Positions 63,112 to 64,000 of a DNA stretch of 64,000 bases are shown here, in pieces. Each line of letters begins with the position of its first letter. Position 1 is the first letter of the stretch. The DNA lies in the sequence record OQ708376.1; one strand, 5' to 3'. The position numbers and the translations under genes are program-made. Source of the stretch: Escherichia phage vB_EcoM_CRJP21. A model generated the notes under the pieces. The model had not been told where the DNA came from and did no database searches. It saw only the letters and a list, made by a program, of their open reading frames with translations.

Positions 63112-64000
63112 TTAAATATTATCTTGAATCGGTTGGATAGGAGCTTGCCATGAAAGAGTACAAATAATTTCCATTTTTCCATAAGGACTGTTGTTAACAG
63201 AATCGTTGAATACACATGAAATAATTTCATCAACATCGGATGCTGCATGATTAGTTTCATTAACAATAAAACGCATCTGACGATTGATATCAAAGTAGGA
63301 AGTTGGTGCAATTACCGTCCCGCCAATATCTTCTTGTGCTTCACCACCAAAACGTACAAACATATCAGTTACTGGAAGAGAATAAGGTTGTATAACGTTT
63401 ACATCAATATTAGAAACTACATATCCAGCAGGACATGTACCAATAACTAATAGTGCGTTAGTCCATGAGCTATCTATGGTATTTCTAATAGAAATTGTAT
63501 CTTTACCTGGTGCACCTGGTTCGCCTTGTATACCTTGAATACCTTGCTGGCCTTCTTTACCACGGAATAGAATACCCTCACTCCACTCTTTTGAAGGAGG
63601 GGTAGTTGTAGTTACTTCATCAACATAATATAGTTTTCCATCAGTGTTGTTATAAAAACAATAATCAACTGGAAGATTTTCAATACTTGGAAATTGATCA
63701 CCACTGCTATCAATATGGAAACGACCACGCGGACCTTGTTCACCACGGAAAGGTATACCATCACTCCAAGTAGCAGTTACACTTTGATAGAAATAAAGTT
63801 TACCATCTTGAGTATTATAAAATGTATAGTTATTAAAAAGACCAGTTGTTGGGAAAGTAGTTCCAGCACTATCAATGTGGAACGGCTTACCCGCTTCACC
63901 CGTATCACCTTTACCAAACTCAACACTAATCCATGTACTTGTCGGATCTTGTGCATCATTTGATTTAAAGTATAGAGTACTGGTATTGTTAGCCAAGCTT
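63112..64000 (-). CDS. collagen-like fibre protein, partial (N-terminus beyond window end)
   Basis: G-X-Y runs GEQGPRG and GKEGQQGIQGIQGEPGAPGKD; ORF open at window edge. Confidence 0.55.
   Translation of the reverse strand, partial: SLANNTSTLYFKSNDAQDPTSTWISVEFGKGDTGEAGKPFHIDSAGTTFPTTGLFNNYTFYNTQDGKLYFYQSVTATWSDGIPFRGEQGPRGRFHIDSSGDQFPSIENLPVDYCFYNNTDGKLYYVDEVTTTTPPSKEWSEGILFRGKEGQQGIQGIQGEPGAPGKDTISIRNTIDSSWTNALLVIGTCPAGYVVSNIDVNVIQPYSLPVTDMFVRFGGEAQEDIGGTVIAPTSYFDINRQMRFIVNETNHAASDVDEIISCVFNDSVNNSPYGKMEIICTLSWQAPIQPIQDNI

What the first reader, a model, noticed from the sequence alone, without database searches (positions are those of the whole stretch)
63112..64000. Collagen-like fibre protein running off the window end
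Seen: G-X-Y triplet runs (GEQGPRG; GKEGQQGIQGIQGEPGAPGKD) and two copies of an FHIDS.G..FP...YTFYN..DGKLY module; the first in-window codon is TTG at 63996 and the ORF is open to the edge, so the N-terminus is missing.
Basis: seen in the sequence. Interest (0 to 1): 0.35.

Follow-up and report, generated by a model that had tools for sequence, protein, structure and literature searches.

The report
Collagen-like beaded fibre of jumbo phage
This is the 3' four-fifths of a known virion-protein gene of Rak2-like jumbo coliphages (121Q gp574 / phAPEC6 gp253), which most likely forms a short three-chain fibre of small beta "beads" joined by very short collagen-like segments and ending in a jelly-roll knob; it is a real but fairly ordinary phage fibre gene whose position on the particle is still unassigned.

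Summary
On the minus strand, 63112-64000 is an ORF open to the window edge. The window is an Asteriusvirus genome, 99.8% identical to PBECO4 and 121Q. The full gene encodes 371 aa and starts at an ATG 227 nt beyond the edge. The 295 in-window residues are identical to 121Q gp574.

Orthologues sit in the same syntenic slot in all 71 Rak2-like phage records found. They were detected in phAPEC6 and CBB virions by mass spectrometry, but not in RaK2.

The order of parts is: N-terminal beta-hairpin domain, (GXY)3, module 1, (GXY)3, module 2, (GXY)~3, module 3, (GXY)7, then a 128-aa jelly-roll. Length changes in the short G-X-Y linkers are whole triplets in 22 of 22 cases. One homologue replaces modules 2-3 with 62 triplets.

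The knob is found only in this family by sequence. Its fold is closest to trimeric phage capsid cement proteins.

Best reading: a conserved trimeric accessory fibre, not the host-range determinant, co-transcribed with a tailspike. Its site on the virion is unresolved. Interest is low to moderate.

The parts
63112..64000 (-). 3' 889 nt of the fibre gene: residues 77-371 of 371, the stop codon, and the last base of codon 76. The true ATG start lies 227 nt beyond the window edge.
   Evidence: The in-window part is identical to 121Q gp574. PHROG 13565 'tail protein', E = 8.9e-172, matching profile positions 81-375 of 375.
63916..63999 (-). C-terminal half of beta module 1 (residues 77-104; the full module is 51-104).
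   Evidence: Module-1 profile E = 5.9e-11. AF2 strands with pLDDT 86-93. Weak colinear similarity to module 3.
63883..63915 (-). G-X-Y linker 2 (GKGDTGEAGKP; three triplets, GDT GEA GKP).
   Evidence: The glycines are invariant in 64 homologues. Length varies only by +/-3 residues.
63745..63882 (-). Beta module 2 (FHIDSAGTTFP...YTFYNTQDGKLYFY...WSDGIPFR; residues 116-161).
   Evidence: AF2 pLDDT is about 90 and the module is all-beta.
63721..63744 (-). G-X-Y linker 3 (GEQGPRGR).
63562..63720 (-). Beta module 3 (FHIDSSGDQFP...YCFYNNTDGKLYYV...WSEGILFR; residues 170-222).
   Evidence: AF2 pLDDT is about 90.
63499..63561 (-). Longest collagen-like run: seven G-X-Y triplets (residues 223-243).
   Evidence: Homologues have 3+3, 4, 5, 6 or 7 triplets here. 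P0064 has 62 triplets spanning this run and modules 2-3.
63115..63498 (-). C-terminal 128-aa jelly-roll knob (residues 244-371).
60956..63097 (-). Co-transcribed 713-aa tailspike (annotated as colanic-acid-degrading, pectate-lyase-like). It starts 14 nt after the fibre gene's stop.
   Evidence: It shares an N-terminal domain of about 110 aa with the next gene.
60043..60939 (-). Co-transcribed 298-aa virion protein with the same N-terminal MAVFSNxEGTM domain. This is the conserved partner gene.
   Evidence: The domain is found in the same 71 phage records as the fibre gene. It lies directly downstream of the fibre gene in the records whose coordinates were compared; in E. coli phages the tailspike gene lies between.
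60006..60034 (-). Terminator-like hairpin (12-bp stem followed by a T run) closing the three-gene unit.

Best explanation
The ORF encodes the Asteriusvirus orthologue of 121Q gp574, phAPEC6 gp253, CBB_228 and RaK2 gp062. This is a conserved virion protein of all Rak2-like jumbo phages.

Shown:
- It is a real, full-length gene in relatives.
- Its product is in purified virions of two relatives.
- Its parts run in this order: N-terminal beta-hairpin domain, three small beta modules, four G-X-Y segments under triplet-periodic constraint, and a C-terminal jelly-roll.

Inferred mechanism:
- Three chains associate through the C-terminal jelly-roll knob. The knob acts as the trimerisation and registration nucleus, like the C-terminal domains of other collagen-like proteins.
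- The G-X-Y segments then wind into short triple helices clamped between trimeric beta 'beads'. This gives a semi-rigid fibre of roughly 25-30 nm. That length is my estimate from 0.286 nm per collagen residue plus five small domains.
- The most conserved part, the N-terminal hairpin domain, docks the fibre on the particle, most probably on the tail (baseplate, sheath ring or collar).
- The knob is distal. Because it is conserved across phages of nine host genera, it is not the host-range determinant. It either makes generic contacts or carries the co-transcribed proteins that share the MAVFSN N-terminal domain.
For: Identity and completeness:
-.

Virion protein:
- phAPEC6 gp253, 40.99 kDa, 14 unique peptides, 65.6% coverage (PMC7247149).
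- CBB_228, 13 peptides, 44% coverage (PMC5259590).

Collagen-like constraint:
- The glycines are invariant.
- The same four runs occur across the family.
- Length changes are whole triplets in 22 of 22 cases in the three short linkers, against 18 of 82 in the beta modules.
- P0064, in the same syntenic slot, has 62 uninterrupted triplets and a Pfam Collagen hit in place of modules 2-3.
- X/Y positions are rich in D, E, K and Q and poor in Pro. From my own knowledge this is typical of bacterial and phage collagens.

Fibre context:
- The gene leads a three-gene unit with a tailspike.
- It lies about 3 kb from a T4 gp15-like tail completion gene.
- The N-terminal hairpin unit recurs 6-8 times with G-X-Y linkers in other fibre-like proteins.

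Conservation, as mean pairwise identity, in records from phages of 9 host genera:
- N-terminal domain 69%.
- Knob 59%.
- Modules 50-56%.
- Long G-X-Y run 45%.

Precedent:
- Prophage collagen-like side-tail proteins of E. coli O157 are trimers with a true triple helix and a C-terminal trimerisation domain (PMC3368898).
Against: - No oligomeric state, triple helix or virion position has been measured for any family member.
- Three-triplet segments are too short to be stable alone, and AF2 (monomer) gives them pLDDT below 50.
- Pfam Collagen is below threshold.
- RaK2 gp062 was not detected in RaK2 virions (PMC3622015).
- No short tail fibres were seen on RaK2 (PMC10253068).
- The knob's best structural matches are capsid cement proteins, not fibre tips.
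- phAPEC6 coverage is as high as for the major capsid and sheath proteins. That hints at many copies rather than 18.
- The polarity (N-terminus proximal) rests only on conservation and on the general rule for phage fibres.
Confidence: 0.6

Rival explanations
1. Capsid (or sheath) decoration fibre. The C-terminal jelly-roll trimer sits on the shell like a cement protein, or at hexamer centres like SPP1 gp12. The beaded collagen-like stalk projects outward and forms part of the 'hairy' coat of 121Q and phAPEC6.
For: - phAPEC6 has an unassigned fibrous protein at every hexamer centre that looks trimeric (triskelion) in negative stain.
- 121Q has fibres around the capsid and sheath.
- gp253 peptide count and coverage equal those of the major capsid protein.
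- SPP1 gp12 is a collagen-like trimer bound at hexamer centres (PMC7602432).
Against: - No sequence relationship to any cement protein. The profile search found only this family.
- The gene lies among tail genes and leads a tailspike operon.
- About 810 copies per capsid would hardly be missed, yet RaK2 gp062 was not detected.
- CBB hairs are on the tail and about 119 nm long. That is far longer than the roughly 25-30 nm expected for 371 aa.
- The gene is present in relatives for which no hairs are reported.
Confidence: 0.15
2. Adaptor fibre. The conserved knob (or another part of the fibre) is the docking site for the N-terminal MAVFSNxEGTM domain of the co-transcribed proteins. The fibre would then carry the variable tailspike, forming a branched receptor-binding complex of a type different from the T4 gp10-like branching of CBA120, G7C and RaK2.
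For: - The about 110-aa domain heads both downstream genes.
- It is a stand-alone 115-aa protein next to the fibre gene in RaK2.
- It occurs in 71 phage records with the same genus counts as the fibre gene. It lies directly downstream of the fibre gene in the records whose coordinates were compared.
- The one metagenomic contig that lacks the knob also lacks this gene.
- Both ends of the fibre are conserved while the spike's catalytic part varies.
Against: - All 71 records belong to one clade with a largely syntenic core, so co-occurrence is weak evidence.
- No interaction was modelled or measured.
- The N-terminal domain could equally dock on the baseplate.
- The contig lacking both genes may be an assembly chimera.
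Confidence: 0.2
3. Classical host-specific receptor-binding tail fibre whose C-terminal knob recognises the E. coli receptor.
For: - Fibre-like architecture with a C-terminal beta-sandwich knob.
- PHROG and RefSeq label 'tail protein'.
- Weak PHROG tail-fibre hits.
Against: - The knob keeps 59% mean pairwise identity, and 43-67% identity to the E. coli phage protein, in phages of Klebsiella, Salmonella, Erwinia, Yersinia, Serratia, Cronobacter, Pectobacterium and Xanthomonas. Host-range determinants are normally the most variable part.
- The variable proteins are the neighbouring spike and giant fibre.
Confidence: 0.07
4. The short G-X-Y runs are only flexible glycine-rich linkers between independently folded domains, with no triple helix. 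The protein need not be a trimer.
For: - Runs of three triplets are below any known autonomous triple-helix length (my own knowledge).
- Pfam Collagen is below threshold.
- AF2 gives low confidence there.
- Modules are predicted as self-contained folds with pLDDT about 90.
Against: - Strict glycine invariance at every third position.
- Whole-triplet indels in 22 of 22 cases.
- Replacement by 62 triplets in P0064.
- Flexible linkers would not be expected to keep phase.
Confidence: 0.12

Closest known systems
Orthologous group: 121Q gp574 / PBECO4 gp546 / phAPEC6 gp253 / CBB_228 / GAP32_222 / RaK2 gp062 (PHROG 13565, 'tail protein')
   Same: The in-window part is 100% identical to 121Q gp574. 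Length, domain order and syntenic slot are the same in all 71 phage records found.
   Different: Nothing differs. This is the same protein. None of the papers read describes its collagen-like beaded architecture, and none assigns it a position. The word 'collagen' does not occur in the phAPEC6, CBB, RaK2 (2013) or Sharanji papers. In the RaK2 adsorption-complex paper the three occurrences found do not concern this protein, and gp062 is not mentioned.
Collagen-like prophage side-tail proteins of E. coli O157:H7 (EPclA/EPclB; Ghosh et al. 2012, PMC3368898)
   Same: Phage fibre proteins with G-X-Y repeats and a C-terminal trimerisation domain. For these, the trimer and the triple helix were shown experimentally.
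   Different: They have one long collagen domain plus an alpha-helical coiled coil and PfN/PfC domains. Here there are four short G-X-Y segments separated by beta modules, no coiled coil, and a family-specific jelly-roll. None of their Pfam domains was detected.
SPP1 gp12, a collagen-like trimeric capsid binder at hexamer centres (reviewed in PMC7602432)
   Same: A collagen-like trimer exposed on a phage particle. It is a precedent for the unassigned hexamer-centre fibres of phAPEC6.
   Different: From my own knowledge, gp12 is a very small protein that is almost only collagen repeat. It has no beta modules and no jelly-roll. No sequence comparison was made here.
Trimeric jelly-roll capsid cement proteins (Ralstonia phage GP4 8h89_J, H. 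pylori phage KHP40 gp16 7dou_4, cyanophage Pam1 7eel_H)
   Different: Sequence identity is 6-12% and no profile-detectable homology exists. Cement proteins are stand-alone proteins of about 125-155 aa, whereas this is the C-terminal domain of a fibre encoded among tail genes.
Collagen stalk plus trimeric jelly-roll head proteins: C1q, Bacillus BclA, PRD1 spike P5 (recalled from my own knowledge); and T4 fibritin with its C-terminal foldon
   Same: The same logic. A C-terminal trimeric domain nucleates an N-terminal fibrous part. The N-terminus anchors the fibre and the head is distal.

Membership tests
PHROG 13565 / RaK2 gp062-like virion protein family | Full-length sequence match to the family profile | tested here: met
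   E = 8.9e-172. Residues 1-295 of the window part match profile positions 81-375 of 375. There are 62 full-length homologues at 42-91% identity.
PHROG 13565 / RaK2 gp062-like virion protein family | Conserved syntenic slot: ClpA-like protease, structural gene, T4 gp15-like gene, NUDIX gene, three divergent structural genes, then this gene | tested here: met
   The order is the same in PBECO4, 121Q, RaK2, CBB and two metagenomic contigs. The upstream part lies outside the window.
PHROG 13565 / RaK2 gp062-like virion protein family | Presence in purified virions | not testable with these tools
   Literature only. It was detected in phAPEC6 (gp253) and CBB (CBB_228) and not detected in RaK2.
Collagen triple-helix repeat proteins (Pfam PF01391) | Score above the Pfam gathering threshold | tested here: not met
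   17.3 bits against a 27.2 cut-off, E = 0.0041, covering only the 7-triplet run. Homologue P0064 does carry PF01391.
Collagen triple-helix repeat proteins (Pfam PF01391) | Glycine at every third residue, conserved, with the reading phase maintained | tested here: met
   Four runs (3, 3, about 3 and 7 triplets). The glycines are invariant or nearly so in 64 sequences. Indels in the short runs are whole triplets in 22 of 22 cases. The long run has a 1-residue interruption in 21 homologues.
Collagen triple-helix repeat proteins (Pfam PF01391) | Formation of a homotrimeric triple helix | not testable with these tools
   Only a monomer prediction was available. The G-X-Y segments have pLDDT below 50.
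Phage capsid cement / decoration proteins (trimeric jelly-roll) | Jelly-roll fold similar to solved cement proteins | tested here: met
Phage capsid cement / decoration proteins (trimeric jelly-roll) | Detectable sequence homology, or a stand-alone gene in the head module | tested here: not met
   The profile of the knob finds only five clusters among 1.84 billion representatives, all from this family. The gene sits among tail genes.
Phage capsid cement / decoration proteins (trimeric jelly-roll) | Binding to the capsid lattice | not testable with these tools
   No experiment or map at sufficient resolution exists. The phAPEC6 map is at 10 Å.
C1q/TNF-like headed collagen proteins | C1q/TNF-type head detectable by sequence or as the best fold match | tested here: not met
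E. coli prophage collagen-like side-tail proteins (EPcl) | Phage-fibre N/C domains (PfN, PfC, Pf2) and a coiled coil flanking the collagen domain | tested here: not met
   No such Pfam domains at E <= 1. The AF2 model is all-beta with no helix of 4 or more residues.
Host-range-determining receptor-binding fibres | Distal domain that diverges with host | tested here: not met
   The knob has 59% mean pairwise identity in the family, whose phage records come from nine host genera.

The most novel reading that the evidence does not exclude
The protein is one of the structural elements of Asteriusvirus and Rak2-like particles that remain unassigned. One option is the trimeric fibres anchored at every capsid hexamer centre or on the sheath rings ('hairy' phages), held by a cement-protein-like jelly-roll. 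The other is a new kind of adaptor fibre whose conserved knob docks the MAVFSN N-terminal domain of exchangeable tailspikes. In either case the alternation of three-triplet collagen segments with small trimeric beta beads would be a fibre design not yet seen in a solved structure.
Probability: 0.2. Interest if true: 0.5.

Novelty: new member of a known kind. Interest (0 to 1): 0.25.

Why it matters
Rak2-like jumbo phages carry several fibre systems that cryo-EM has seen but could not assign to genes: capsid fibres, sheath rings, collar decorations and short baseplate fibres. This 41-kDa protein was detected in virions of two relatives and is strictly conserved across the clade. It is therefore an obvious and easily testable candidate for one of them.

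Its conserved ends and its fixed pairing with a domain that heads exchangeable tailspikes could matter for engineering the host range of therapeutic jumbo phages.

Beyond that it is an ordinary structural gene. Collagen-like motifs in phage fibres are well known, and the sequence itself is already in the databases.

Tried and rejected
- **Pfam.** Scans of the whole protein and of separate parts gave nothing above threshold. A GH14 hit at E = 0.03-0.09 was dismissed as noise.
- **PDB by sequence.** A profile search gave nothing better than E = 0.08. Weak hits to bulb-type lectins and WW domains cover the YTFYN..DG.LY hairpin, but the lectin's Q.D.N.V.Y sugar-binding residues are not kept. I treat this as chance or hairpin-level resemblance.
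- **Distant relatives of the knob.** An exhaustive profile search found none outside the family. The one extra hit, P0069, is a low-complexity repeat artefact.
- **P0063 as fibre mosaicism.** I first read it as classical mosaicism, with a conserved N-terminus and a swapped C-terminus. Closer inspection shows a fusion of residues 1-112 to the C-terminal part of the gp570-like protein, with the whole intervening cluster missing. This is a deletion variant or an assembly chimera, so it is weak evidence for polarity.
- **Paralogues.** None of any domain exists elsewhere in the 64-kb window.
- **phiKp24 hyperbranched-fibre paper.** That phage is not a close relative, and nothing in the paper bears on this protein.
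- **Mass-spectrometry coverage as a copy-number proxy.** The data conflict. Coverage is high in phAPEC6, medium in CBB (where the T4 gp15-like tail completion protein CBB_233 also reaches 32%; its T4 counterpart has six copies per virion) and absent in RaK2.
- **Sigma-70 promoter scan.** The number of sites was no higher than in shuffled sequence.

Full report
**Observation**

On the minus strand, an ORF ends at the TAA at 63112-63114. It reads without a stop up to the window edge. There is also a third in-window run, GDTGEAGKP. No shuffle of 20,000 reaches a seven-triplet run, and only 3 reach four runs of three or more triplets.

The two FHIDS...YTFYN..DGKLY modules are clearly homologous to each other. 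Their alignment scores z = 18 against shuffles and hhalign gives E = 1e-22.

**What genome this is, and the missing N-terminus**

Window 60000-64000 is 99.8% identical to Escherichia phages PBECO4, 121Q, G17 and Sharanji. These are Asteriusvirus, Rak2-like jumbo myophages of about 350 kb.

In PBECO4 and 121Q the gene is annotated as a 371-aa 'tail protein' or 'structural protein' (gp546 and gp574). Its ATG lies 227 nt beyond the window edge. An AAGGGA ribosome-binding site precedes the ATG, and an in-frame TAA lies 14 codons upstream.

The 295 residues encoded in the window are identical to 121Q gp574 and differ from PBECO4 at one residue. The TTG at 63996 is codon 78, not a start.

**The family**

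A search of 5.8 billion proteins gave 62 full-length homologues of 353-387 aa at 42-91% identity. None has a precomputed Pfam domain. The family is PHROG 13565, 'tail protein' (E = 8.9e-172).

In the phage collection the protein is encoded in 71 records, all Rak2-like jumbo phages. Their hosts are Escherichia, Klebsiella, Salmonella, Erwinia, Yersinia, Serratia, Cronobacter, Pectobacterium and Xanthomonas.

The syntenic slot is constant: ClpA-like protease, structural protein, T4 gp15-like tail completion protein, NUDIX hydrolase, three divergent structural genes, then this gene.

Virion mass spectrometry gave mixed results:
- The phAPEC6 orthologue gp253 (40.99 kDa) gave 14 unique peptides and 65.6% coverage. 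That is the same peptide count as the equally sized major capsid protein (PMC7247149).
- CBB_228 gave 13 peptides and 44% coverage (PMC5259590).
- RaK2 gp062 was predicted to be structural but was not detected (PMC3622015). It is not mentioned in the later study of the RaK2 adsorption complex, which also saw no short tail fibres (PMC10253068).

**Anatomy (121Q numbering)**

| Part | Residues |
|---|---|
| N-terminal domain | 1-41 |
| GQNGENGKN | 42-50 |
| Module 1 | 51-104 |
| GKGDTGEAGKP | 105-115 |
| Module 2 | 116-161 |
| GEQGPRGR | 162-169 |
| Module 3 | 170-222 |
| Seven G-X-Y triplets | 223-243 |
| C-terminal domain | 244-371 |

An AlphaFold2 model of a 91-93% identical full-length homologue, built with a 64-sequence alignment, has mean pLDDT 83. 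The modules reach about 90 and the C-terminal domain about 94, and both are all-beta. The G-X-Y segments are below 50, as expected for a single chain of a trimeric helix.

Module 1 aligns colinearly but weakly with module 3 (hhalign P = 0.001, probability 22%). A module in the unrelated protein P0065 matches the profiles of all three, with E = 2e-4, 7e-7 and 3e-7. I therefore regard module 1 as a probable diverged third copy.

The N-terminal unit (I..INxAGHLIVTYxDNTIxDLGxVVG followed by G-X-Y) recurs 6-8 times in tandem in P0065 and P0066, which also carry collagen repeats. It is thus a general fibre 'bead'.

**Are the G-X-Y runs collagen-like?**

Pfam Collagen is below threshold, at 17.3 against 27.2 bits. 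Three triplets cannot form a stable helix on their own. The comparative evidence nevertheless points to a triplet-periodic constraint:
- The glycines are invariant or nearly so across the family.
- The same four runs recur in almost every member.
- Every one of the 22 length deviations in the three short linkers is a whole triplet. In the beta modules only 18 of 82 deviations are multiples of three.
- In homologue P0064, which sits in the same syntenic slot, modules 2-3 are replaced by 62 uninterrupted triplets with a Pfam Collagen hit.
- The X and Y positions are rich in D, E, K and Q and poor in proline. From my own knowledge this is typical of bacterial and phage collagens.
- Prophage collagen-like side-tail proteins of E. 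coli O157 have been shown to be trimers with a real triple helix and a C-terminal trimerisation domain (PMC3368898).

Trimerisation and helix formation in this protein remain inferences.

**The knob**

Sequence tells a different story. A profile of the knob searched against 1.84 billion representatives finds only five clusters, all members of this family with the domain at the C-terminus. No solved structure is related by sequence. The knob is therefore a family-restricted jelly-roll. Because both capsid and baseplate proteins match, the fold similarity cannot locate it on the particle.

**Conservation pattern**

Mean pairwise identity by region:
- N-terminal domain: 69%.
- Knob: 59%.
- Modules: 50-56%.
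- Long G-X-Y run: 45%.

A knob this well conserved in phages of nine host genera is not what a host-range determinant looks like. The variable proteins are the neighbours: the tailspike, the giant fibre and a 'tail needle knob' protein.

**Operon and partner**

The next gene starts 14 nt after the stop. It encodes a 713-aa pectate-lyase-like tailspike, annotated as colanic-acid-degrading. A 298-aa virion protein follows, and then a strong terminator-like hairpin at 60006-60034.

Both downstream proteins begin with the same domain of about 110 aa, MAVFSNxEGTM.... In RaK2 this domain is a stand-alone 115-aa protein encoded directly after the fibre gene. It occurs in 71 phage records with the same genus counts as the fibre gene. 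It lies directly downstream of the fibre gene in the records whose coordinates I compared.

One metagenomic contig lacks the knob. There, residues 1-112 are fused to the C-terminal part of the gp570-like DUF4376 protein, and the whole cluster in between is missing. That contig also lacks the partner gene. It may be an assembly chimera.

This pairing suggests, but does not show, that the fibre and the MAVFSN-domain proteins work together.

**Where on the particle?**

Cryo-EM and negative-stain work on phAPEC6 and 121Q left several elements unassigned:
- fibres at each hexamer centre that look trimeric;
- fibres at three rings on the sheath;
- twelve elongated proteins at the collar and again at the distal tail;
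- six short baseplate fibres.

CBB baseplate fibres measure 28.6 +/- 2.7 nm and its tail hairs about 119 nm. My length estimate for this protein is 25-30 nm. It assumes about 48 collagen residues at 0.286 nm each plus five small domains. That fits the short baseplate fibres and not the 119-nm tail hairs, but it is only an inference.

Evidence for a tail location:
- gene context;
- the usual N-proximal polarity of phage fibres;
- the highest conservation at the N-terminus.

Evidence for a many-copy (capsid or sheath) location:
- the cement-like fold;
- the high phAPEC6 coverage;
- the precedent of SPP1 gp12, a collagen-like trimer at hexamer centres (PMC7602432).

Evidence against the many-copy reading:
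- the failure to detect gp062 in RaK2;
- the presence of the gene in relatives without reported hairs.

I commit to a tail-attached, N-terminally anchored trimeric accessory fibre with a distal knob that nucleates trimerisation (confidence about 0.6 for the general model). I leave the exact site open.

**Comparison with known systems and novelty**

The protein itself is already in the databases and in PHROGs, so the sequence is not new. As a kind, it belongs with phage collagen-like fibre proteins.

What I did not find in any paper read here is a description of its architecture: three-triplet collagen segments alternating with small beta beads and ending in a cement-like, family-restricted jelly-roll. 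I also found no assignment of its role.

It fails the tests for membership of four families. These are Pfam Collagen (score), the EPcl side-tail proteins (domains), C1q/TNF-headed collagens (head), and cement proteins (sequence and gene context).

I rate it a new member of a known kind, of low to moderate interest. Its main value is as a ready candidate for one of the unassigned fibre systems of Rak2-like jumbo phages.

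Noticed in passing
window 62768-63097 (-) and 60610-60939 (-): The 713-aa tailspike and the 298-aa virion protein share an N-terminal domain of about 110 aa (MAVFSNxEGTM...; 38% identity, E = 1e-20). 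In RaK2 the same domain is a stand-alone 115-aa protein. It occurs in 71 phage records with the same genus counts as the collagen-like fibre gene, directly downstream of it in the records whose coordinates I compared.
   Followed up: partly
window 60006-60034 (-): Strong terminator-like hairpin (12-bp stem, T run) right after the 298-aa gene. It delimits a three-gene unit (fibre, tailspike, 298-aa protein) ahead of the giant fibre gene.
   Followed up: no
window 53514-59903 (-); 59230-59973 (+): The 2129-aa repetitive fibre protein is 288 aa longer than 121Q gp571 (1841 aa). It contains a 336-nt tandem repeat (54732-55460; 2.2 copies, 91% matches). The PBECO4 record is linearised inside this gene, so it is not annotated there. 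PBECO4 RefSeq gp549 corresponds to the antisense shadow ORF 59230-59973 (+), which is probably a misannotation.
   Followed up: partly
window 51248-52639 (-): A 463-aa ORF matches PHROG 1030 'tail needle knob' (E = 4e-70). It lies between the gp570-like and gp569-like genes. 121Q has only an 85-nt gap there, so the fibre region of this phage is mosaic relative to 121Q.
   Followed up: partly
L006 8001-8813 (metagenomic contig SRR30543657_465): Protein P0063 joins residues 1-112 of the fibre (N-terminal domain plus module 1, up to GKGD) to the C-terminal 155 aa or so of the gp570-like DUF4376 protein (window 52670-53449). The whole fibre cluster in between is absent. This is a natural deletion variant or an assembly chimera.
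   Followed up: partly
L007 8001-9251 (metagenomic contig SRR21686213_291): Homologue P0064 keeps the N-terminal domain, module 1 and the knob. It replaces modules 2-3 and the linkers with 62 uninterrupted G-X-Y triplets, so it is a long-stalk version of the same fibre in the same syntenic slot.
   Followed up: partly
cluster of P0001: Many identical or near-identical copies of this protein are deposited as 'hypothetical protein [Escherichia coli]' on contigs of 345-358 kb. Whole Asteriusvirus genomes are therefore present in E. coli isolate assemblies, through a carrier state or contamination.
   Followed up: no
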